NCBI RefSeq assembly: GCF_009914755.1
Contig: NC_060927.1
Length of the DNA stretch: 64,000 nucleotides
Strand: one strand, 5' to 3'
Origin: the human T2T-CHM13v2.0 reference genome, Homo sapiens
The translations under genes were made by a program, and so were the position numbers. Below the pieces are notes generated by a model. The model searched no databases. It had not been told where the DNA came from and was given only the letters and a program-made list of their open reading frames with translations. Shown here piece by piece: positions 1 to 29,437 of this stretch (positions are counted from its first letter, which is position 1; the number at the start of each line of letters is the position of its first letter).

Positions 1-1977
1 AAAAAGATAAAAGAGATGAGAAAATCTTATTTATGATAGCGTAAGATGAATCACCTCTAAACTTCAGAAATGTCCAAAGTCTATATTAGACAACAATCAA
101 ATCTATCTGAAACACACAAAATAGTCTTGAACAAATGGAAAGAAACACCATGCACTCAAATAGACTCAATAGCATAAAGATGTCTCTTCTCCCTAAGTTA
201 ATGTATCAATTTAATGCAATCCTAATTTTTAAAATTCCATTTTTTTTTCTAGAGTTAGATGAGTTGATTTTAAATTCCCTTTGTAAGAACAGAAAGACAA
301 GAATGGCCAGGAAAGAAAAACTAAGAAAGAGTGGAGGGGAGGAGGCTGGGGAGGGGACCAGCAGCCCCGCCAGACATTAACATATTATAAAGTCTCTGTA
401 ATTAAAATAGTTTAGCGTTGGCACAAAAAAGATGAGAAAACCATGGAACAGAATAGAACATTCTATAGTAAGCTCTACTGTGTTTGGAAATTGAGTATTG
501 ATGAAGGCAGCATTTGAAACCAATAGAGGGAAGGATGGACTTTTTAATAAGTGATATTCAGACAACTAGATAGTCATAAGGAAAATAATAAAATTAGATC
601 CATTTCTTGCTGTACCCTAGGGTCAGTTCTAAATGTATCCTAGATATAAAATCAAAAATGAAACCATACAAGTAGAAAACATAGGTGAATTCCTTTATAA
701 CTTGGATGTGGGAAAAATTTTTCTTGTTACAATTCAAAATACAAAAGCAACAAAGGAAAATATTGATAAATTTGATTAAGAAAAATTTTAAAATGTTGCA
801 TTTCAAAATATCACCATAAGCAAAATTAAAAGATAAATGACAAACTAGAAAAAAAAATGCAATGTAGGATACAAAAGGTTAAAATAGACCTATTTTATAC
901 ACAGCATTTAAAATTTGAGGTTAAAAAAAGCCGATAGCACTCTTTTATTTTTAAATGTTAGAGATATGAACAGACAGTTGACACAAAAAATAGATGAAAA
1001 TGGCTCCTAATGTCTCAACTGCACTCATAATAAGAGAAATTTTTAAAATCTACCTGAGATACCACTTTTACCTATCCAATTAGCAAAACTCTAAAAGTAT
1101 GTCAAACTATTTGTTGGTGAAGCTCTAGGGAAACAGGCAAGTTTATACAGTGTTGATGGGAATAGAAAATGTTACAACCCCTATGGAGAAAAATTTGGCA
1201 ACATCTAGACAAATTATATAGGCATTTATGTATACATAATTTGACCCAGCAGTCCTGTTTCTAGGACACACTCCCAATGACACACTGGCAAAAATATGAA
1301 CAAGAAGTATGTACAAAGCTGTTCACTGCAATCCTATCTGTAATACCAAAATACTGGAAACATCCAAATACCTCCCAGGAGGGGACTCGTTGAATAAACC
1401 ATGATGCATCTGCAAAGGAACAAGAAATCGCTCTATAGCTACTATGGAGTGATGATCTCCAGGATATGTTATTGAGCTAAAAGGCAAGATGGAAAGAGTG
1501 TGTATTTCATTCTACCATCTAGCTAAGAAAAGGGAAGGATATGAATATATACATACATATGTGTTTACATTGGAAAAAATGGAATAAAACAAACCATAAG
1601 TATTTTTAAATGTTACTTATAGGAGGGTGGAGGGGAAAAAGTAGCAGGGAAAGGTAGGGCACTAGAGTTCTTCTAATTTATCTTGTTATGTGGAGATGAC
1701 TTTGGAACCATGAAAATATTTTACAGAATTGTATAACAAAAATAGATTTCAGAAAGCCAATTCTAAGAATCAAAAATAAAAAGAAACAAATGAATCCAGC
1801 TATGTACCAAGTTGATAGCATAGTCACACGAAGAAGAACTATTCCAAGTGGCTTTTTAAACCACAGGAATTTAACTGTACATTCCTAGTGGAGATGCAAA
1901 AGACAACAGAAAAAAACCCAACAATTTTTCAGTAATCACATTGGTGGTGGTAGCACTGGCACTGTTATTCTGACACT

Positions 1978-1978
<1 letters not shown>

Positions 1979-2014
<36 letters not shown>
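1979..2014. repeat. (GT)18 microsatellite
   Basis: read directly. Confidence 0.95.
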
Positions 2015-2017
<3 letters not shown>

Positions 2018-2503
2018 GTGGGACAGAGTAAGAGAGTAACTATATTTGTGTTATTGAAAACTGAGACTTGAATGTGAGTGAAAGGAGATACAGTTGTAAG
2101 ATGCATGACGTTTAGTGACAATTCTTTAGTCTTGAAATTAAATCAGAATTATCAATATAAAGTCATGATATATGTGATCATGAAAATAAATATATGCCTA
2201 TTTCCAAGTCTGACCACTGAAAAGATCTAGAAGCAATGGCCAACTTAGCGACAATGAACATTTTTAGCCTCAGATTTGGGTCTCTAACAACCATCTTTCA
2301 CTAAAAGAATGGGGGGCTCCTTGTAGAAATGGCTGAATCCAGGTTCGAGGATAGGAAATATACAAGACGAGTCTGAAACACCTTGTCATACCAGAAAGCA
2401 AGGACGCTATGAAAAACTACTACAGTCATGTCAGAAGACTTAGGAGTCAATTCAAAGAAGCTCCCACTAACCAAAGATGGTTGGGAATCAATAAGAATAT
2501 TAT

Positions 2504-2612
2504 CAGGGCTTCCAGTAAGGTGAACAAGAAGACATCCATGTGCTGGGAGGGTGGCTACCCCAACTCCATGGGGACAGAACTCCTGTGCTCAGGACTCTTC
2601 TACACCTCATGC
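2504..2612 (+). mobile_element. MER21-like LTR fragment at the 5' end of the AFF4 retrocopy
   Basis: catccatgtgctgggagggtggctaccccaactccatggggacagaactcctgtgctcagga resembles recalled MER21 consensus. Confidence 0.65.
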
Positions 2613-3871
2613 TGTGGAATCTAAAGCAACAGCAAAGCTGAGGTCCAACTGCCATAAGGATGGACACCAAGGAGGCTGCACTGGGGAGAAAAAGAAGTCA
2701 AGATAAGCAACATGAACCATAAAGCCCGGACCGTGGCGGGTATGAAAGAACAAGAAAGGCGGGATCAGGAAATTCAACAGGACGAAGTTGCCTTCCCACC
2801 TAGCTCTCTTCTCTTTGCTGAGCCATACAAAACTACTAGCAAGGAAGATAAGTTATCGAGTTGTATCCAGAGTAGGCTTGGAAACTATGGTGAAATGAAA
2901 GATTTTATAGGAGACAAATCTATACCAAGGCTTATTGCAGTTTCCAAGCCTACGGTACCACCTATAACAGATGAAAATGGACCCCAGTAGGACCTCTGCA
3001 CCCAGCATTTCTGTCCCAGAAACAGTCCTCAGGCTTACAGAGTGGACATAGTAGCCAGTAGACCGGTGCAGGTGGCAGCAGTGGCACTAACAGTCGTGGC
3101 CAGAGACATGACTGTGACTCACATAGCAGTAGTGGGAGCAGAAGACCAGAGAAAAATGTCAGCATGGATCACAGCACTCCAAGCTGCGCTCTTCCAGCCC
3201 TGGGAAACCCCAGGCTGTCTCTTCGTTAAGCTCCAGTCATTCCAGCTCTCATGGGAATGATCAGCATAGCAAGGAATATCAGCGCTCCAAATCACCTGGG
3301 GACCCTAATGCAAACGGGGATTCTCCCTCTCACGTATCTTTTCCAAGTGGGCAGCACTCAAATCAGTCTTTCCCACCTTCGTTGATGTCAAAGTTCAGTT
3401 CAATGTTACAGAAACCTATTGCCTGTGTGCAGCCCGTGGGCGGACAGGAGTCCGTGGGCGGACAGGAGTCTGTGGAACCAGAGCTGTCCTCTGAGCGCTA
3501 CAGTAGCCAATCCCATGGTGACAGCACAAATGAGCTGCAGCCCAGCAGCAAAGCACATCTCGCCAGGCTGAAAATACCTTTCTAACCGCTGGACCTAAGT
3601 CACACATTCAGAGCTTTTAATATTGTGACTATGTGAAGCAATTGAACATGAAATTCTGATTGAACTTGAACTGCCTTTTTGCCTTAATAGTAAAGAATGT
3701 AAAAGTTTAGAGATGTTTTAAAGTTTAAAGAAAGACTTGTGAGCCACTTCCAAGTGAATCCATAGAGACCTGTTAGCTCCCCTCTTGGGAAATAGACAAA
3801 ATGTCATTTACAGTTTTGAAATATTAAAGTAAGTCAGTTATAGAATAAAAGCATGATCCATCAAGTTTTAA
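2504..3871 (+). pseudogene. Processed pseudogene (retrocopy) of the 5' part of AFF4, approx. codons 1-306
   Basis: ORF 2712..2990 ([29 protein letters not shown]) and ORF 3382..3585 ([16 protein letters not shown]) match the recalled AFF4 N-terminus with no intron; frameshifts and stops; AATAAA at 3844; flanking direct repeat AAGAATATTAT at 2493-2503 and 3872-3882. Confidence 0.93.
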
Positions 3872-6732
3872 AAGAATATTATTAAGAACATTAACTGCAA
3901 TAGATTGAAATCCATCAAATATGTCAGTATAACACCGAAAAAAAAAAAAAAACTAATTAATCACCTTTGGAGCCCACTGAGGAACCAACTCATTTTTAAA
4001 ACTGGTAAATAATGAGAGAAAATAAAGCATTTTCCTGCCTTTCTTATAAGACCTATAGGTATATCCAGTAAGAAAAATAAATAAAGAGAGGAATTATCTT
4101 TTTATAGATGTATTCCAGCTAATAAAGAAAAATAATAGAATTATTAATTTTATTTATATCTATAATAAAACAATGGCTCTAGGCAATAACAATAATCAAA
4201 TGGCTATGACCTTCACAAAATGCGACCAGCAGCCGTTCTGCATCTCCTGGTGGAGTACACATCACCACCTATGAAGTAGTCTTGCAAACAAACAAAAAAC
4301 CTGAATATGATTAAGCCTCAAGATAAAACTACTAATTTACAGAAAAGAAGGGGGTCAGATGAACGGGTTAATTCTATAGTAAGCTCTACTGTGTCTGGAA
4401 ATTTAGTTTTAATAAAGGCAGCACTTGAAGCCAATAGAGGGAAGGGTGGACTTTTTAATAAGTGATATTTAGACACTAGACAGTCATAAGGAAAATAATA
4501 AAAGTATTATTATAGAGATGAAACCAGCAAAATCCAAACTCTGGGAAACTATAAGACAAAAGACCCAATTTTTTAACAAATAAAAATTGCAAGGGAAAGA
4601 AGCAAGATGGTAAGAGAAATCTATACAGTAAAAGAGACTAAATTAACATATCAGCCCATCAAAATGGGCTTTATTTGGATCACTATCCAAACAATTAAAA
4701 AATATATTAGACACGAGAAAAGATAAACACTATTTGATAATTGAGAAAGTATTACGAAAGTATTATTAATTTTTAGACGTGATCATGGTTGTGAAGTCAT
4801 GTGTTCTTTTTAAAGCATTCTTATAATTTGCCAGTACAGGCTGAAATATTTGAAGAAGAAATAATATGATGTCTGGGATTTGTTGAAAATAATCTCAGGC
4901 AGAGTGGCAAGACGTGTGGGCACAAGTAAAACAAAATAGGCCACGTGCTTATAATCAAGGAAGCTGGGTGATGCATATATGGGGGTCCACTATAACAGAT
5001 TTCTTGTGACTGACATTTGAAATTTTTGTAAAAATGCAGCTAGAAGACCTACCTCATCGGGTTGGTGCAGGAATGTAAATGAAATGATGTGTGTAAATCG
5101 CCTGGCACATAATCAATGCTTTAAGTTTGTGGAATTGAATAAACTTGAAGACATACATTAAGTGAGCAGTAACACAAACAGCTGCTTACATGAGCGCGTT
5201 GATCAACCGACATACGCTGTGGGAGTTTCCAGAAAGAGCAGGGTATTGATTAGTTCTCAGCAAGGGTGCCCCAGGAAGTGGGGACTGAATGTGGGTCCCA
5301 AGGAAGATGCCAGAAGATGGCCCTTCAGAGCGGGGCCCCGCGTGGACCAAGGTGGGAGCCGGGCATGGCGTCCTCAGGGCAGTCTGGGTGCCGGGCAGGC
5401 CTCCTACCAAGCGCCAGCTCTGCCGGGGCCACTGCTCTGTCTCCCTCCCTCTCCACTTCCAGAGCCTGGCACAGGGAGGCATACCTCGACACACAGCGGG
5501 TGTTCAAGAAACGGCCGGTGGTGAAAGGTGAATGTGGAACCAGACAGGCTCCAGGTTTCAATTCAGAACTCCAGCTCAGGGGTTCTCTGAAATTCCAGAC
5601 CAGCAGTGAGACAGGAAGCGGCTGCAATGTCTGACACAGAGAAACAACGCAGCAGAATCCTCTGCCGCTGTGAGAAGAGAACCAGGATGCTGGTTAGATA
5701 CTGACGTGGAGCTGGCGCCAGAATGTATCTGAGTAACCACGTCTGTGCTCTGCTACTATTTCTGTTTCTTAGAAAGTGGAGGGCAGACCCTCTCTGGAAG
5801 CACACATAGGGGCTGCGGACAGTGGAGGCTTCTGGTGAGAGGGCTGGGGCTGGAGACAGGGCAGGAGCAGGCTTACTTTGGGGTATATACTCTTTGACAC
5901 TGTTTGGAGGTTTTACCTTAAATAAAATATGCAGTAATAAATAAAAGTCCTGTCAGTGGCTTTTGGGGTGGGGGAAGCAGTAATTCCTATCAGGTCTTGG
6001 GGCAGGGGAAGCCTTCAGAACTCCACGGAAGCAAGAGAACCTTTCTACTGACGTGTCCCGGTGGGAGAGAAGACCCATCTCCACAGCTCCTCTCAAAACA
6101 AACCCAGCCAAATTAAACAAGCGTACAGAAGAGCAATAGGAAAGATGTTCTAAAGGGCTACACTCTCCAGAAGAGCTAAATTAAAACTAATCCAGGCAGC
6201 TGGCACAAGTGCTGAGGACAAATGTGGTGGCTTTTTACGGGGGAATTAGTGAAAGAATGGCTGAACCAAGCAGAATGTTACTCAGGGTCCCCAGCGCTCT
6301 CCCAGAGGGTTTATGCTGATCCACCGAATTTGAGGACTCAATTTAGGCAAATAAAACCTAGTTTATTGTCGTCTGGCTGGGGAAAAGCACATAAAGACTC
6401 ATTTATCTGGTTGTAAACGAGCTAGTAGAGCTGGCTGTCACAAGTGCATTATTCAGCAGAAACGAGAAGTGATTTCAGCAGTCCTCAGGAGGGAGTGAAT
6501 GCAGGGCACAGGAGTGGAAATCTCCACCACCAAACTGACCACCACTGGAAAACAACTTGTCCTTTTTAGTTACATGTTTATTGCAGGACCAACGAATAAC
6601 CATCTAAATAAGCGCTAACTAAATAACACTACAGTGTGGAAGTTAGAAAGCCCCCGCATTTCAGCAGGCTCTGGGAAAAATTATGCAGAAGACAAAGTCC
6701 CCTGCTGAATGTAACTGCCCACGCCTGCCTGG

Positions 6733-22341: not shown

Positions 22342-22700
22342 TGTATTAGTCAGGGTTCTCCAGGGAAACATAACCATAGAATGTGTACAGAGAGAGATTT
22401 ATTTTAGGGAATTGGCTCACACAGTTATGGAGGCTAGAAGTCCAAGATCAAAGTGTCAGCAGGTTGGGAGGCCCAGGGAAGAGGTGACGCTGCAGTTCAA
22501 GGCTGAAGGCTGTCTGCTGGTGGAATCCTATTTTCTCAGGGGACCTCAGTCTTTGCTCTGTTAAATCCCGCAACTGATTGGATGAGAATACCCACATTAT
22601 GGCACGCAGGCAACCTGCTTTACTCAAAGTCCACCAATGTCAATGTTAGTCTCATCCAAAAACACCTTCACAGAAACATCTAGATTGTTTGACCATCACA
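22342..22700 (-). mobile_element. MLT2-type ERV-L solo LTR
   Basis: tgtattagtcagggttctccag..ggaattggctcacacagttatggaggct. Confidence 0.8.
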
Positions 22701-22852
22701 TATTATTTCCATCTGCAACTTACTTTCTTCACTTATTGTGTTTTTGAGATTTATCTATGTTGACAAATCTATCATTTCATTGTATATGAGGGGACTTCAA
22801 AATGTTCCTGGAAAAAAAATGGAATTAAGAGATAAAAATACAAAATGTAAAC

Positions 22853-23600
22853 TTTTTTTTTTTTATTATTATACTTTAAGTTTTAGGGTACATGTGCACA
22901 ATATGCAGGTTAGTTACATATGTATACATGTGCCATGTTGGTGTGCTGCACCCATTAACTCGTCATTTAGCATTAGGTATATCTCCTAATGCTATCCCTC
23001 CCCGCTACCCCCACCCCACAACAGTCCCCGGTGCGTGATGTTCCCCTTCCTGTGTCCATGTGTTCTCATTGTTCAATTCCCACCTATGAGTGAGAACATG
23101 CGGTGTTTGGTTTTTTGTCCTTGCGATAGTTTGCTGAGAATGATGGTTTCCAGTTTCATCCATGTCCCTACAAAGGACATGAACTCATCCTTTTTTATGG
23201 CTGCATAGTATTCCATAGTGTATATGTGCCACATTTTCTTAATCCAGTCTATCATTGTTGGACATTTGGGTTGGTTCCAAGTCTTTGCTATTGTGAATAG
23301 TGCCGTAATAAACATACGTGTGCATGTGTCTTTATAGCAGCATGATTTATAATCCTTTGGGTATATACCCAGTAACGGGATGGCTGGGTCAAATGGTATT
23401 TCTAGTTCTAGATCCCTGAGGAATCGCCACACTGACTTCCACAATGGTTGAACTAGTTTACAGTCCCACCAACAGTGTAAAAGTGTTCCTATTTCTCCAC
23501 ATCCTCTCCAGCACCTGTTGTTTCCTGACTTTTTAATGATCGCCATTCTAACTGGTGTGAGATGGTATCTCATTGTGGTTTTGATTTGCATTTCTCTGAT
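22853..23600 (-). mobile_element. 5'-truncated young L1PA (approx. PA3-PA4): ORF2 C-terminus, 3' UTR, poly(A)
   Basis: ORF 23073..23684 contains [18 protein letters not shown] and ends MFSLIGGN; poly(T) at 22853. Confidence 0.97.
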
Positions 23601-26600
23601 TTTCTTCTGCAATGCCGCTTGACCCCAATACACACTCGACAGTAGTTCCAAATAGCCAGAAAACGGCACTTTCAATTTTTCCACCCTACAAGATCTAAAT
23701 AATTCTTGTCATAAAATGGGCAAATGGTCTGAGGTGCCTGATGTCCAGGCATTCTTTTACGCATCGGTCCCTCTCTAGTCTCTGTTCCCAATGCGACTCA
23801 TCCCAAATCTTCCTTCTTTCCCTCCCGCCTGTCCCCTCAGTCCCAACCCCAAGCGTCGCTGAGTCTTTCTAATCTTCCTTTTCTACAGACCCATCTGACC
23901 TCTCCCCTCCTCACCAGGCCGAGCTAGGTCCCAATTCTTCCTCAGCCTCCGCTCCTCCACCCTGGTCCGCTCCTTTTATCACCTCCCCTCCTCACACCTG
24001 GTCCGGCTTATGGTTTCATTCCGTGACTAGCCCTCCCCCACCTGCCCAGCAATTTACTCTTAAAAAGGTGGCTGGAGCTGAAGGCATAGTCAAGGTTAAT
24101 GCTCCTTTTTCTTTACCCCAAATCAGATAGCGTTTAGGCTCTTTTTCATCAAATATAAAAAACCCAACCCAGTTCATGGCAGCAACCCTGAGACGCTTTA
24201 CAGCCCTAGACCCTAAAAGGTCAAAAGGCCGTCTTATTCTCAATATACATTTTATTACCCAATCTGCTCCTGACATTAAATAAAACTCCAAAAATTAAAT
24301 TCCGGCCCTCAAACCCCACAACAGGATTTAATTAACCTCGCCTTCCAGGTGTACAATAATAGAAAAAAGTTGCAATTCCTTGCCTCCACTCTGAGACAAA
24401 TCCCAGCCACATCTCCAGCACACAAGAACTTCCAAACACCTGAACCGCAGCAGCCAGGCGTTCCTCCAGAACCTCCTCCCCCAGAAGCTTGCTTCAAGTG
24501 CCAGAAATCTGACCACCAGGCCAAGGAATGCCTGCAGCCCAGGATTCCTCCTAAGCCGTGTCCCATCTGTGCGGGACCCCACTGGAAATCGGACTGTTCA
24601 ACTCACCTGGCAGCCACTCCCAGAGCCCCTGGAACTCTGGCCCGAGGCTCTCTGACTGACTCCTTCTTGGCTTAGCGGCTGAAGACTGATGCTGCCCGAT
24701 CACCTCAGAAGCCCCGCAGACCATCACGGACGCCGAGCTTTAGGTAACTCTCACAGTGGAGGGTAAGTCCATCCCCTTCTTATCAATACGAGGCTACCCA
24801 CTCCACATTACCTTCTTTTCAAGGGTCTATTTCCCTTGCCTCCATAACTGTTGTGGGTATTGACAGCCAGGCTTCTAAACCTCTTAAAACTCCCCAACTC
24901 TGGTGCCAACTTAGACAATACCCTTTTAAGCACTCCTTTTTAGTTATCCCCACCTGCCCCGTTCCCTTATTAGGCCGAGACACTTTAAATTATCTGCTTC
25001 CCTGACTATTCCTGGATTACAGCCGCATCTCATTGCCGCCCTTCTCCCCAACCCAAAGCCTCCTTTGCATCTTCCTCTCGTATCCCCCCACCTTAACCCA
25101 CAAGTATGGGACATCTCTACTCCTTCCCTGGCAACCGATCACATGCCCATCACCATCCCATTAAAACCTAATCACCCTTACCCCGCTCAACGCCAATGTC
25201 CCATCCCACAGCACGCTTTAAAGGGATTAAAGCCTGTTATCACTCGCCTGCTACAGCATGGGCTTCTAAAACCTATAAACTCTCCTTACAATTCCCCCAT
25301 TTTACCTGTCCAAAAACCGCACAAGTCTTACAGATTAGTTCAGGATCTGCGCCTTATCAACCAAATTGTTTTGCCTATCCGCCCTGTGGTGCCCAACCGG
25401 TACACCCTTTCGTCCTCAATACCTTCCTCCACAACTCACTATTCCGTTCTTGATCTTAAAGATGCTTTTTTCACTATTCCCCTGCACCCCTCGTCCCAGC
25501 CTCTCTCTGCTTTCACCTGGACTGACGCTGACACCCATCAGTCCCAGCAGCTTACCTGGGCTGTGCTGCCACAAGGTTTCAGGGACAGCTCTCATTACTT
25601 CAGCCAAGCTCTTTCTCATGATTTACTTTCTTTCCACCCCTCTGCTTCTCACCTTATTCAATATATTGATGATCTTCTTCTTTGTAGCCCCTCCTTTGAA
25701 TCTTCTCAACAAGACACACCTCTGCTCCTTCAGCATTTATTCTCCAAAGGATATCGAGTATCCCCCTCCAAAGCTCAAATTTCTTCTCCATCGGTTACCT
25801 ACCTCGGCATAATTCTTCATAAAAACACACGTGCTCTCCCTGCCGATCGTGTCCGACTAATCTCTCAAACCCCAGCACCTTCTACAAAACAACAACTCCT
25901 TTCCTTCCTAGGCATGGTTAGCGCGGTCAGAATTCTTACACAAGAGCCAGGACCACATCCTGCAGCCTTTCTGTCCAAACAACTTGACCTTACTGTTTTA
26001 GCCTAGCCCTCATGTCCGCGTGCAGCGGCTGCCGCTGCTTTAATACTTTTAGAGGCCCTCAAAATCACAAACTATGCTCAACTCACTCTCTACATTTCTC
26101 ATAACTTCCAAAATCGATTTTCTTCCTCATACCTGACACATATACTTTCTGCTCCCCGGCACCTTCAGCTGTACTCACTCTTTGTTAAGTCCCACAATTA
26201 CTATTGTTCCTGGCCAGGACTTCAATCTGGCCTCCCACATTATTCCTGATACCACACCTGACCCCCATGACTGTATCTCTCTGATCCACCTGACATTCAT
26301 CCCATTTCCCCATATTTGCTTCTTTCCTGTTCCTCACCCTGATCACACTTAGTTTTTTGATGGCAGTTCCACCAGGCCTAATCGCCACACACCAGCAAAG
26401 GCAGGCTATGCTATAGTACAAGCCACTAGCCTGCCTCTTAAGAACCTCTCATTTCCTTTCCATTGTGGAAATCTATCCTCAAGGAAATAACTTCTCAGTG
26501 TTCCATCTGCTGTTCTACTACTCATCAGGGATTATTCAGGCCCCCTCCCTTTCCTACACATCAAGCTCGAGGATTTGCCCCCACCCAGGACTGGCAAATT

Positions 26601-27623
26601 AGCTTTACTCAAAGCCCCGAGTCAGATAACTAAACTACCTCTTAGTCTAGGTAGACACTTTCACTGGATAGGTAGAGTCCTTTCCTACAGGGTCTGAGAA
26701 GGCCACCGCAGTCATTTCTTCCCTTCTGTCAGACATAATTCCTCAGTTTAGCCTTCCCACCTCTATACATTCTGATAACAGACCAGCCTTTATTAGTCAA
26801 ATCAGCCAAGCATTTTTTCAGGCTCTTAGTATTCAGTGACAGACTAGCGGTCTATTAAAAACACACCTCACCAAGCTCAGCCAGCAACTTAAAAAGGACT
26901 GAACAATACTTTTACCACTTTCGCTTCTCAGAATTCAGGCCTGTCCTCGGAATGCTACAAGGTACAGCCCATTTAAGCTCCCGTATAGACGCTCCTTTTT
27001 ATTAGGCCCCAGTCTCTTTCCAGACACCAGACCAACTTAGACTGTGCCCCAAAAAACTTGTCATCCCTATCTTCTGTCTAATCATACTCCTATTCACCGT
27101 TCTCAACTACTCATACATGCCCTGCTCTTGTTTACACTGCCAGTTTACACTGTTTCTCCAAGCCATCACAGCTGATATCTCTTGGTGCTATTCCCAAACC
27201 GCCACTCTAAACTCTTGAAGTAAATAAATAATTTTTGCTGGCAGGACTATGCTGAATCTCCTTAGGCACTCACTAATCAGATGTCCTAGGTCCTGCCAAT
27301 TCTTAGACCTTTTATACCTGTTTTTCTCCTTCTCTTATTCCATTTAGTTTTTCAATTCATACAAAACCGTATCCAGGCCATCACCAATAATTCTACACGA
27401 CAAATGTTTCTTCTAACATCCCCACAATATCACCCCTTACCACAAAAATCTTCCTTCAGCTTAATCTCTCCCACTCTAGGTTCCCACGCAGCCCCTAATC
27501 CCGCTCGAAGCAGCCCTGAGAAACATCGCCCATTCTCTCTCTCCATACCACCCCCCAAAAATTTTCGCCGCCCCAACACTTCAACACCATTTTATTTTTC
27601 TTATTAATATAAGAAGGCAGGAA
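23601..27623 (+). mobile_element. HERV-H internal region (partial gag, pro, pol with deletions); no 5' LTR or PBS
   Basis: Gag zinc knuckles CFKCQKSDHQAKEC and CPICAGPHWKSDC (ORF 24349); RT motifs LDLKDAFF, LPQG, YIDD (ORF 25065..26006); polypurine tract aagaaggcaggaa at 27611-27623. Confidence 0.96.
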
Positions 27624-28020
27624 TGTCAGGCCTCTGAGCCCAAGCCAAGCCATCGCAACCCCTGTGACTTGCATGTATATGCCCAGATGGCCTGAAGTAA
27701 CTGAAGAATCACAAAAGAAGTGAATATGCCCTGCCCCACCTTAACTGATGATATTCCACCACAAAACAAGTGTAAATGGCCGGTCCTTGCCTTAAGTGAT
27801 GACATTACCTTGTGAAAGTCCTTTTCCTGGCTCATCCTGGCTCAAAAAGCTACCCCACTGAGCACCTTGTGACCCCCACTCCTGCCCACCAGAGAACAAA
27901 CCCCCTTTGACTGTAATTTTCCTTTACCTGCCCAAATCTTATAAAACGGCCCCACCCCTATCTCCCTTCGCTGACTCTTTTCGGACTCAGCCCACCTGCA
28001 CCCAGGTGAAATAAACAGCT
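27624..28020 (+). mobile_element. LTR7 (HERV-H 3' LTR) truncated just after its poly(A) signal; U5 and terminal CA missing
   Basis: Starts TGTCAGGCCTCTGAGCCCAAG; has a TATAAAA box; AATAAA at 28010-28015, then directly HSMAR2 sequence. Confidence 0.95.
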
Positions 28021-29172
28021 CCATCAAGTTCAAGACACTTTTGTAAGCAATGATAGCAGCCATTTAGTTCATCCCTAAAGAACTGAGGGCCTTGGGAATT
28101 TAGCAATGTTAGTGCAGTCTTTTCACATTATTAACTGAAGAAAAATGAGTGCCCTTTAAAGATTTTTTAAGATTAGGAAACAAAAAGAAGCCAGAAGGAG
28201 CCAAATCAGGACTGTAAGGTGGACGCCTAATGATTTTCTACTGAAACTCTTGCAAAATTGCCATTATTCAATAAGAGGAATGGGCAGAAGCATTTGTCAT
28301 GATGGAGGACTCTCTAGTGAAGCTTTCTCAGGTGTTTTTCTGCTAATGCTTTAGCTAACTCTCAAAACACTCTTATAATAAGCAGATGTTGTCATTTTTT
28401 GCCCTCCAGAAAGTCAACAAGCAAAATGCCCTGAGCATCACAAACTGTTGCCATGACCTTTGCTCTTGACCTGTCTCTCTTTGCTATGACCGGACCCCTT
28501 CCATCATTTGCTAGCCATTTCTTTGATTGTGCTTTGTCTTCAGGATTGTACTGGTAAAGCTATGTTTCATCTCTTGTTACAATTCCTTGAAGAAATGCTT
28601 CAGAATCTTGGTCTCACATGTTTAAAATTTCCATTGAAAACTCTGCTCTTGTCTGCGGCTGAGCTGGGCAAAACAGTGTTGGCACCCATTAAGTGGAAAG
28701 TTCGCTTAACTTTAATTTTTCGGTCAGAATTGTGTAAGCTGAACCAATGGATATGTTTATGGTGTCAGCTATTCTTTCTGCGATCAATAATTGGTCCTCT
28801 TCAATTAGGGCATGTACAAGATGAATTTTTCCCTTGCAAATTGTCTGCTGCTATGGCCTTCGTCTTCAACATCATTTTATTCTTTCTTAAATGAATTATC
28901 CATTTGTAAACTGCTGATTTCTTTAGGGCATTGTCCCCATAAACTTTTCATAAAGCTCCCATGATTTCATTATTTTTCTACTCAAGCTTCACCACAAATT
29001 TGATGTTTTCTCTTGCTTTAATTTTTTCTGAATTCATGTTGCTATGATAGGGGCTCTTTCCAAACTGATGTCTTATACTTCTTAGTGCCTCTTATATCTG
29101 ATTCTGAACTATTCTGTTCAGATATAAGAACTTAGTATGAGTTTATTTTGGTGCAAAAAAATTTGAAATTTA

Positions 29173-29437
29173 GGCTGGGCACGATGGCTTATGTCTGTAA
29201 TCTCAGCACTTTTGGAGGCCGAGGCAGGTGGATCACTTGAGGCCATTGCTACTAAAAATACAAAAAATTAGCTGAGTGCAGTGTCGTGTGCCTGTAGTCC
29301 CAGCTACTGGGTAGACTGAGGCACAAGAATACCTTGAACCCAGGAGGTGGAGCTTGCAGTGAGCCAAGTTCTCTTTGCTGCACTCCAGCCAGGGTGACAG
29401 AGAGAGACTCTGTCTCAAAAAAAAAAAAAAAAAAAAA
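29173..29437 (+). mobile_element. Alu with an internal deletion, inside HSMAR2
   Basis: left monomer shortened after cacttgaggcca. Confidence 0.9.

What the first reader, a model, noticed from the sequence alone, without database searches (positions are those of the whole stretch)
22853..28020. Head-to-head L1PA-HERV-H chimera: a retroviral RNA apparently inserted by L1 twin priming rather than by integrase
Seen: a 5.2-kb block interrupts one HSMAR2 copy. It consists of poly(T) plus 750 nt of L1PA 3' end on -, joined at 23600/23601 to HERV-H on + that starts inside gag (no 5' LTR or PBS) and stops 5 nt after the LTR7 AATAAA (no U5, no terminal CA). Both RNA 3' ends face outward. There is no TSD. 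The right junction shares AGCT between the LTR end and HSMAR2. About 13 nt of HSMAR2 (transposase end YVEK*, from recalled consensus) is lost, and the left break is a TTT/A L1-endonuclease-like site. Known: integrase leaves two full LTRs and a short TSD; twin priming gives an inverted 5' segment with microhomology at the outer junction. Inference: one event, either twin priming on a HERV-H transcript that read through into a downstream sense L1, or two different RNAs primed from the two nicked strands. This would be a HERV-H processed copy carried by L1.
Basis: partly seen in the sequence, partly recalled or inferred. Interest (0 to 1): 0.85.

Follow-up and report, generated by a model that had tools for sequence, protein, structure and literature searches.

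The report
Inverted L1 and HERV-H composite insertion
A 5.2-kb block inside an old HSMAR2 transposon joins a young L1 tail head-to-head to a retrovirus (HERV-H) copy that lacks the ends a normal provirus has, most likely because the L1 machinery copied two RNAs at one DNA break; it is a neat fossil of a mechanism already described for other RNAs.

Summary
The anatomy is real, with small corrections. One HSMAR2 copy (22786-29170, minus) is interrupted by poly(T) plus 748 nt of L1 3' end on minus (22853-23600). This is joined to 4.4 kb of HERV-H on plus (23601-28020). The HERV-H starts about 950 nt into the internal region, inside gag. It ends in R, 5 nt after AATAAA and about 14 nt short of the poly(A) site.

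There is no U5, no poly(A) and no TSD. 13-20 nt of HSMAR2 are lost. The left break is AAACTTT/A. The outer right junction shares AGC(T). The inner junction shares only AT exactly (5 of 6 with one mismatch).

The junction is unique in T2T and no donor was found. The LTR is listed in print as a truncated LTR7up1, the subfamily transcribed in stem cells. Branch lengths (L1 0.010; HERV-H 0.024-0.032 at most) allow one event about 8-12 Mya but do not prove it.

Best reading (0.55): one L1 event in which the second DNA end primed on a HERV-H RNA. Two-RNA twin priming is already published for snRNA/L1 chimeras.

Rivals are a read-through RNA, an antisense chimeric RNA, captured viral DNA, and stepwise insertions plus deletions. 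Ape orthologues, not available here, would decide. Interest is moderate.

The parts
22786..22852 (-). HSMAR2 left arm: terminal repeat and 3' untranslated end of the transposon, up to the break after ...GTAAAC. The T at 22853-22855 may also belong to it.
   Evidence: Alignment with 19 HSMAR2 copies. Homology starts at about 22784-22787, next to a TA.
22853..22864 (-). Poly(T), which is the L1 poly(A) tail on the minus strand. It has 12 T, and the first 3 could be target TTT of the nick site AAACTTT/ATTTC.
22865..23600 (-). 5'-truncated young L1PA 3' end. The 3' UTR is about 22865-23072. The last 175 ORF2 codons (23076-23600) are open, with the stop at 23073-23075.
   Evidence: 40 other copies at 96-98% all end at query 747-748; open frame 23073-23708 on minus; end branch 0.010.
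23599..23600 (.). Inner junction. AT is shared exactly by the L1 and HERV-H readings. TCTGAT against TCTTAT gives 5 of 6.
   Evidence: 10 L1 copies, 14 HERV-H copies; the junction is unique in the genome.
23601..27623 (+). HERV-H internal region lacking the first ~950 nt (primer-binding site, leader, start of gag). It contains the rest of gag with the zinc knuckle, protease, reverse transcriptase, a degenerate 3' part and the polypurine tract.
   Evidence: copies at 90-96%. (zf-CCHC 3.6e-05, RVP 4.7e-04, RVT_1 2.9e-24).
27624..28020 (+). LTR7up1 U3 plus the first ~51 nt of R. It begins TGTCAGG at 27624, has the 8-bp AAAAGAAG motif at 27713-27720, TATAAAA at 27940-27946, R from about 27970 and AATAAA at 28010-28015, and ends CAGCT. 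The last ~14 nt of R and all of U5 are absent.
   Evidence: PMC8912925 supplementary file 2.
28017..28020 (.). Outer right junction. AGC or AGCT is shared between the LTR R region and HSMAR2.
28021..29170 (-). HSMAR2 right arm (transposase remnant and the other terminal repeat), followed by an Alu at about 29173-29437.

Best explanation
This is one L1-mediated insertion that used two RNA templates, that is, twin priming with a foreign second template.

Inferred steps:
1. L1 endonuclease nicked the plus strand of HSMAR2 at AAACTTT/ATTTC.
2. The T-ended 3' OH primed on the poly(A) of an active-lineage L1 RNA, and 748 nt were copied.
3. The duplex broke 13-17 nt further right.
4. The 3' end of the minus strand (...GGAGC(T)) annealed by 3-4 nt to a polyadenylated LTR7up-type HERV-H RNA, about 14 nt upstream of its poly(A) site.
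5. ORF2p reverse transcriptase copied 4.4 kb of that RNA, up into gag.
6. The two cDNA ends were joined at a short imperfect homology (AT, 5 of 6), and the 13 nt between the two breaks were lost instead of being duplicated.

Shown: the anatomy, the junction sequences, the target loss, the uniqueness of the junction, the subfamily, and the existence of ordinary L1-made HERV-H retrocopies. Inferred: that there was a single event, the order of steps, and that the template was RNA.

The block is a fossil. No function is shown, although the LTR keeps its U3 promoter motifs.
For: (1) The left end is a textbook target-primed junction: a poly(T) abuts TTT/A of the target on the strand that carries the antisense L1.

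(2) The HERV-H end has U3-R but no U5, which is the order in viral RNA and not in integrated DNA. It stops about 14 nt before the poly(A) site that two bona fide retrocopies use.

(3) The two HSMAR2 halves are contiguous apart from 13-20 nt (17 of 19 copies have 20 nt there). Everything was therefore inserted within one 20-nt interval.

(4) There is microhomology at the outer HERV-H junction (AGC or AGCT). About 95% of 5'-inverted L1 insertions have such microhomology, and about 70% have 2-5 bp (PMC2912911, passages).

(5) There is precedent. Seven inverted snRNA/L1 chimeras, with 3'-truncated snRNAs complementary to the target, were explained by twin priming on a second RNA (PMC4476161, passages).

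(6) HERV-H RNA was an L1 substrate. The chr4 copy (L021 plus L067) starts at R, ends with R plus an A-rich tail and has a 10-nt TSD. A chr12 copy also ends in R plus A-tail.

(7) The LTR is listed as LTR7up1, the subfamily that is highly transcribed in pluripotent cells (33% of 7up loci). 14 of 208 7up1 elements are found in orangutan and 178 of 208 in gorilla (PMC8912925, passages and supplementary file 2). The 8-bp 7up motif is present at 27713-27720.

(8) The ages are compatible. The L1 end branch is 0.010 (about 7 changes in 733 columns; my Poisson range is 0.4-2.0%). The HERV-H end branches of 0.024 and 0.032 are upper bounds. Regular 7up-like copies have 0.014-0.024. The CpG count of the window copy (26) lies within that of 13 relatives (21-34).
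Against: There is no TSD. In the passages seen from PMC2912911, all 17 inverted L1 insertions in a HeLa assay had 10-17 bp TSDs, and target deletions went with simply truncated L1. The snRNA/L1 chimeras of PMC4476161 also had TSDs. The geometry here (second break to the right of the first) leaves a recessed 3' end that needs resection before it can anneal.

The L1 private branch (0.010) is 2.4-3.2 times shorter than the HERV-H branch. This is what a later L1 insertion would also give.

No donor provirus or solo LTR above 96% identity was found (39 other LTRs at 95-96%; best internal match 96% over 901 nt, at a locus that is only 92% and 87% over the two halves). Only 34-40 candidates of about 1000-3300 were scored in each search.

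The inner junction shares only 2 nt exactly.

No orthologous locus of any other primate could be examined.
Confidence: 0.55

Rival explanations
1. Stepwise origin. A normal LTR7up1 provirus integrated into the 20-nt interval of HSMAR2. Later a 5'-truncated L1 inserted at TTT/A with a target deletion of about 1.4 kb (HSMAR2 remnant, 5' LTR, start of gag). A separate deletion of about 60-75 nt removed the end of R, U5 and the adjoining target.
For: The L1 end branch of 0.010 is shorter than the HERV-H branches of 0.024-0.032. The HERV-H copy looks like any other 7up copy in its distance to relatives and in CpG count, and needs no lost donor. Truncated L1 insertions often come with target deletions (PMC2912911, passage).
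Against: It needs three independent events whose breakpoints all fall inside one 20-nt stretch of HSMAR2. One of them has to remove exactly the part of the LTR that viral RNA lacks and stop about 14 nt from the poly(A) site. My rough count, an inference and not a computation, puts the expected number of such coincidences genome-wide far below one.
Confidence: 0.13
2. Classical twin priming on one read-through RNA. A HERV-H transcript ran past its own poly(A) signal into a downstream sense L1 and used the L1 poly(A). The second primer annealed in R.
For: It gives the same geometry as the best explanation. HERV-H proviruses with sense L1 fragments downstream do exist (L060 has a 134-nt L1 3' end in sense about 1.2 kb after a 7up-like 3' LTR).
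Against: No donor with this arrangement was found. Of the 30 HERV-H-bearing loci held (L002-L010, L012-L022 and L056-L066, with two pairs covering the same provirus), none carries 748 nt or more of L1 like the window's. The L1 part is closer to active-lineage L1 copies (branch 0.010) than the HERV-H part is to its relatives. That is easier to explain if the L1 RNA came from a live L1 rather than from a resident copy beside an older provirus. It also offers no reason for the second primer to sit 14 nt from the normal HERV-H RNA end.
Confidence: 0.12
3. An ordinary single-template retrocopy of a chimeric antisense RNA. In a donor provirus a 748-nt L1 had already inserted in antisense into gag. 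A transcript running antisense through HERV-H ended at the L1 poly(A) and was retrotransposed with 5' truncation in R.
For: It gives exactly the observed order and orientations with one priming event. 5'-truncated retrocopies commonly show microhomology and target deletions.
Against: The inner junction occurs nowhere else in T2T (1 of 40 scored matches spans it, and that one is the window itself). It needs an extra earlier L1 insertion plus loss of the donor. The position of the outer end in R would be pure chance.
Confidence: 0.06
4. Capture of extrachromosomal HERV-H DNA. A partly degraded linear viral DNA from a then-replicating 7up lineage was ligated by end joining between the free L1 cDNA end and the other side of the break, independently of integrase.
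For: 7up was still amplifying at about that time (PMC8912925). Both HERV-H ends are at non-viral positions with short microhomologies, and the target shows a small deletion, as in end-joining repair.
Against: It requires about 55 nt of erosion from one viral DNA end and 1.4 kb from the other. It also needs a second kind of nucleic acid at the break, whereas a reverse transcriptase and poly(A) RNAs are known to be there. No sequence feature distinguishes it from the best explanation.
Confidence: 0.07

Closest known systems
Inverted snRNA/L1 chimeras made by twin priming on a second RNA (Doucet et al. 2015, PMC4476161; passages read)
   Same: A 5'-truncated L1 with a poly(A) at an L1 endonuclease site is joined to a foreign RNA copy in the opposite orientation. 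That copy is truncated at its 3' end and shares a few nucleotides with the target at its outer junction.
   Different: Here the second template is a 4.4-kb polyadenylated retroviral RNA rather than a ~100-nt snRNA. The target shows a 13-20 nt loss instead of a TSD.
[quoted passage not shown]
   Same: There are two segments with their RNA 3' ends facing outward. Microhomology occurs at the outer junction of the inverted segment and at the inversion junction.
   Different: The two segments are not parts of one L1 RNA, and there is no TSD.
HERV-W processed pseudogenes made by L1 (Grandi et al. 2016 PMC5016936, listing only; Grandi and Tramontano 2017 PMC5537654, abstract and passages)
   Same: A retroviral RNA is copied by L1 machinery. 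The copy has a U3-R 3' end without U5 and is 5' truncated.
   Different: There is no poly(A) tail and no TSD, and priming was internal in R on the second strand. The family is HERV-H, which the 2017 abstract does not count among L1-mobilised groups ('sole HERV group').
L1 insertions with target-site deletion (Gilbert 2002 and Symer 2002 are recalled and were not read; mentioned in a PMC2912911 passage)
   Same: A 5'-truncated L1 at an endonuclease-type site with loss of target DNA instead of a TSD.
   Different: The loss here is only 13-20 nt, and a second retro-copied sequence fills the gap.

Membership tests
L1 twin-priming (5'-inverted) insertion | Poly(A) end at an L1 endonuclease-type target (TTTT/A) on the primer strand | tested here: met
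   AAACTTT/ATTTC in HSMAR2 copies, with the poly(T) starting exactly there
L1 twin-priming (5'-inverted) insertion | Two segments in opposite orientation with their RNA 3' ends facing outward | tested here: met
   L1 on minus with its tail at the left; HERV-H on plus with R at the right
L1 twin-priming (5'-inverted) insertion | Both segments derive from one L1 RNA | tested here: not met
   The inverted segment is HERV-H
L1 twin-priming (5'-inverted) insertion | Flanking target-site duplication of about 10-17 bp | tested here: not met
   13-20 nt of HSMAR2 are lost and nothing is duplicated
L1 twin-priming (5'-inverted) insertion | Microhomology between the target and the outer end of the inverted segment | tested here: met
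   AGC or AGCT
Two-RNA twin-priming chimera (snRNA/L1 type) | The foreign RNA copy is 3'-truncated, inverted relative to L1 and complementary to the target at its junction | tested here: met
   HERV-H ends about 14 nt before its poly(A) site, with AGC(T) shared
Two-RNA twin-priming chimera (snRNA/L1 type) | Single event, with both parts appearing together in phylogeny | not testable with these tools
   No primate genomes are held. Branch lengths are compatible but not decisive
L1-made HERV processed pseudogene (HERV-W type) | 3' end is U3-R followed by poly(A), with a TSD | tested here: not met
   U3 and partial R are present, but there is no poly(A) and no TSD. The chr4 HERV-H copy does meet this feature
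Integrase-made provirus | Two complete LTRs and a short TSD | tested here: not met
   There is no 5' LTR, and the 3' LTR lacks about 55 nt including all of U5. No TSD
LTR7up1 subfamily of HERV-H | 8-bp AAAAGAAG insertion in U3, and placement among 7up LTRs | tested here: met
   The motif is at 27713-27720. hg38 chr3:133430496-133434928, plus strand, 'truncated', LTR7up1 in PMC8912925 supplementary file 2. Equating that row with this window rests on chromosome, strand, length (4432 against 4420) and a recalled hg38 position of BFSP2

The most novel reading that the evidence does not exclude
L1 ORF2p used a pluripotency-type (LTR7up) HERV-H RNA as the second template at its own integration site in the germ line or early embryo of an African-ape ancestor. 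Together with the canonical HERV-H retrocopies on chr4 and chr12, this would mean two things. HERV-W is not the only HERV group moved by L1. And some of the many 'truncated, one-LTR' HERV-H loci are L1-made retrocopies rather than decayed proviruses, which would affect how HERV-H amplification and its age classes are counted.
Probability: 0.5. Interest if true: 0.5.

Novelty: new member of a known kind. Interest (0 to 1): 0.4.

Why it matters
The locus is a clean natural record of L1 reverse transcriptase priming from both sides of one break on two different RNAs, one of them a long retroviral RNA. It extends a mechanism so far documented for small nuclear RNAs.

It also shows that HERV-H RNA, the abundant transcript of human pluripotent cells, met the L1 machinery in heritable cells. 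This suggests a simple genome-wide screen: look for LTR7 ends inside R, with or without an A-tail. Such a screen would separate L1-made HERV-H copies from true proviruses.

The locus has no shown function and lies in an intron of BFSP2, so its value is mechanistic and for annotation.

Tried and rejected
Donor search. I searched with the junction, the whole HERV-H part, a 901-nt internal piece, the LTR with 64 nt of upstream sequence and the LTR alone. Nothing above 96% was found and no second copy of the junction. The best short hit (98% over 126 nt, chr3:131.58 Mb) fell to 90% over 1.6 kb. Each search scored only 34-40 of about 1000-3300 candidates, so absence is not proven.

Read-through test. 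The L1 part was compared with the flanks of the 30 HERV-H-bearing loci held. Only one unrelated 134-nt L1 fragment turned up.

Dating. ML trees, pairwise distances and CpG counts do not separate one event from two. The 19-row tree holds one genomic place twice (L009 and L017). The L1 tree has only 12 rows and its bootstrap had not settled.

My first reading of a 6-nt inner microhomology, taken from BLAST ends, was wrong and was corrected.

The pattern scan for an R end plus A10 gave 6 places. 4 of them were chance matches and only 2 are LTR7.

Searches for earlier descriptions of L1-made HERV-H copies and of twin priming with retroviral RNA found none. Subscription journals are not covered, and Pavlicek 2002 and Ostertag and Kazazian 2001 were not read.

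I did not name the L1PA subfamily, because no consensus library is held. The ages quoted for L1PA2 and L1PA3 are recalled.


Full report
WHAT IS THERE

The window is T2T chr3:136,152,001-136,216,000, inside an intron of BFSP2. A nearly full-length HSMAR2 fossil on the minus strand runs from about 22786 to about 29170. It is split by a 5,168-nt block at 22853-28020.

The block starts with 12 T followed by the reverse complement of an L1 3' end. All 40 other L1 copies scored (of 3122 candidates) align at 96-98% up to window 23599-23600 and stop there in the window, while they themselves continue into ORF2. The last 175 ORF2 codons of the fragment are still open.

From 23601 the plus strand is HERV-H. 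39 other copies scored (of 972 candidates) begin to align at 23595-23600, and only the window spans the junction.

The HERV-H fragment begins about 950 nt downstream of the 5' LTR of complete copies. A gag zinc knuckle, a protease domain and a reverse-transcriptase domain follow in order. The fragment ends with 397 nt of LTR at 27624-28020.

The LTR stops 5 nt after AATAAA. Twenty of 21 other LTR ends aligned go on for about 55 nt more: about 14 nt of R, then about 40 nt of U5, then the primer-binding site or flank.

THE JUNCTIONS

Left junction. 17 of 19 other HSMAR2 copies carry 20 nt between the window's two arms, and 2 carry 15-16 nt. The commonest letters are TTTATTTCTCAACATAAGCT. The poly(T) starts exactly at AAAC|TTT/A. 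The plus strand, which carries the antisense L1 (the first-strand cDNA), was therefore nicked at an L1 endonuclease-type site.

Right junction. The LTR reading ...AATAAACAGC(C/T) meets the HSMAR2 reading ...AAGCT|CCATCAAG. Of the 11 nearest 3' LTRs, 9 have CAGCC and 2 have CAGCT, so 3 or 4 nt are shared.

Target. The net loss is 13 nt (20 if the shared letters are counted), and nothing is duplicated.

Inner junction. L1 copies read TCTGAT|GGCC (10 of 10). Thirteen of 14 HERV-H copies show a TCTTAT-type hexamer in register before TTTC (10 exactly TCTTAT; one copy is shifted by a gap). Only AT is shared exactly, or 5 of 6 with one mismatch. My earlier figure of 6 nt, taken from BLAST ends, was wrong.

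WHERE HERV-H RNA ENDS, AND WHETHER L1 EVER COPIED IT

One of the copies found by chance (L021, chr4:97.40 Mb) ends ...TTGCTCACACA followed by an A-rich tail. Its 5' end (L067) starts at GCTGACTC, about 25 nt after the TATA box. The same 10 nt (AAAACATTCA) flank both ends. This is a canonical L1-type processed copy with the structure R-U5...U3-R-poly(A) plus TSD.

A strict pattern scan for this R end plus ten A gave 6 places. Two of them are LTR7 (chr4 and chr12:78.82 Mb) and 4 are chance matches.

Two conclusions follow. HERV-H RNA was a substrate of L1, although the abstract of a 2017 review calls HERV-W the sole HERV group mobilised by L1 (PMC5537654). And the window's copy stops about 14 nt short of the RNA's natural 3' end. 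It has the RNA order U3-R and lacks the U5 that integrated DNA would have.

WHICH HERV-H, AND WHEN

Supplementary file 2 of Carter et al. 2022 lists hg38 chr3:133430496-133434928, plus strand, 'truncated', one LTR, LTR7up1 (PMC8912925). The length (4432 nt), the strand and the position within BFSP2 fit this element, although the hg38 gene position I used is recalled. The 8-bp AAAAGAAG motif that the paper ties to 7up is at 27713-27720.

According to the passages read, 14 of 208 7up1 elements are found in orangutan and 178 of 208 in gorilla. 7up is the subfamily transcribed in embryonic stem cells.

No donor was found. The best LTR matches are 95-96% (39 listed). The best internal match is 96% over 901 nt, at a locus that is only 92% and 87% over the two halves. 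Regular 7up-like copies are no closer to each other: 55 pairs have a median of 4.28% mismatches, against 5.35-6.2% for the window versus the 11 cluster copies. The missing donor is therefore weak evidence either way.

ML trees give these end branches:
- L1 part: 0.010 (12 rows, 733 columns; bootstrap not settled).
- HERV-H 3' 1.9 kb: 0.024 (14 rows), with cluster copies at 0.014-0.024.
- HERV-H 5' 1.6 kb: 0.032 (19 rows, one locus entered twice; median 0.044).

About 7 changes in the L1 give a Poisson range of 0.4-2.0% by my arithmetic. The HERV-H values are upper bounds because the family is sparsely sampled. The ages overlap, but the L1 is nominally younger. The CpG counts (window 26; 13 relatives 21-34) show nothing unusual.

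INTERPRETATION

Any history has to place the L1 tail, the L1/HERV-H joint and the R-truncated LTR end inside one 20-nt stretch of HSMAR2.

The simplest history is one L1 event. First-strand priming on L1 RNA occurred at TTT/A. The 3' end on the other side of the break then primed by 3-4 nt of complementarity near the 3' end of a polyadenylated LTR7up HERV-H RNA. The two cDNA ends were joined.

This is the two-RNA form of twin priming that Doucet et al. proposed for seven inverted snRNA/L1 chimeras (PMC4476161). The outer microhomology fits what is known for 5'-inverted L1 insertions, of which about 95% have microhomology and about 70% have 2-5 bp (PMC2912911). That the priming site lies 14 nt from the RNA's poly(A) site makes sense if the RNA was held by its tail.

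Three points count against this reading. Twin-primed insertions normally carry TSDs (17 of 17 in the HeLa set quoted), whereas this one has a small deletion, which implies resection of the second end. The L1 branch is shorter than the HERV-H branch. And no orthologue was examined. I put this reading at 0.55.

RIVALS

- Stepwise insertion plus two deletions (0.13). This fits the branch lengths but needs three independent breakpoints in 20 nt, and a deletion that happens to mimic the RNA end.
It gives the same geometry. It has no donor and offers no reason for the priming site. It is also harder to square with an L1 part that looks fresher than the HERV-H part.
- A retrocopy of an antisense HERV-H/L1 chimeric transcript (0.06). 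It needs an earlier L1 insertion and a lost donor, and the junction is unique in the genome.
- End-joining capture of eroded viral DNA at the L1 intermediate (0.07). It cannot be told apart by sequence.

NOVELTY AND VERDICT

The mechanism is in print for snRNAs. L1-made HERV copies are in print for HERV-W. This locus is itself listed in print as a truncated LTR7up1 element without comment on its origin.

What appears new is the inverted L1/HERV-H composite and, in passing, the canonical HERV-H retrocopies. Searches found no description of either, but subscription journals are not covered.

I file it as a new member of a known kind, of moderate interest (0.4). The decisive test is the orthologous locus in apes, which these tools do not hold.

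Noticed in passing
L021 with L067 (G000 chr4:97,400,082-97,405,391, minus): A canonical L1-type processed copy of a full HERV-H RNA. It starts at the first bases of R (GCTGACTC), ends with R followed by an A-rich tail, and is flanked by the same 10 nt (AAAACATTCA) on both sides. It fixes the R boundaries and shows that L1 mobilised HERV-H RNA.
   Followed up: yes
L071 (G000 chr12:78,819,055-78,819,266, minus): A second LTR7 whose R end (...GTTGCTCACACACA) runs straight into an A-tail. Its 5' end and TSD were not examined.
   Followed up: partly
window 22384-22807 (minus) and 22808-22852: The terminal exon of BFSP2-AS1 (NR_135276.2, per the hub's annotation) begins at 22807. The AG acceptor (CT at 22808-22809 on plus) and its pyrimidine tract lie in the HSMAR2 left arm, only 45 nt from the L1 tail. 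The composite insertion therefore sits at the very end of that lncRNA's last intron.
   Followed up: no
window 27713-27720, 27940-27946 and about 27970: The truncated 3' LTR keeps the 7up-specific AAAAGAAG motif, the TATA box and the start of R, and points the same way as BFSP2. It could still act as a promoter or enhancer in pluripotent cells. No expression data were examined.
   Followed up: no
L060 (G000 chr8:133,201,704-133,205,166), positions 141-274: A 134-nt L1 3'-end fragment lies in sense about 1.2 kb downstream of a 7up-like HERV-H 3' LTR. This is the kind of arrangement a read-through donor would need, but it is too short and only 93% identical, so it is not the donor.
   Followed up: partly
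window 25610-25770 (HERV-H query positions 2010-2170): Many HERV-H copies align to the window as two pieces (1-2009 and 2171-4419), skipping about 160 nt that the window and a few copies (for example L012 and L013) carry. This is an internal indel polymorphism of the family.
   Followed up: no
window about 29173-29437: An Alu with its A-tail abuts the far end of the HSMAR2 copy. Its poly(A) produced the spurious long inverted repeats with the L1 poly(T).
   Followed up: no
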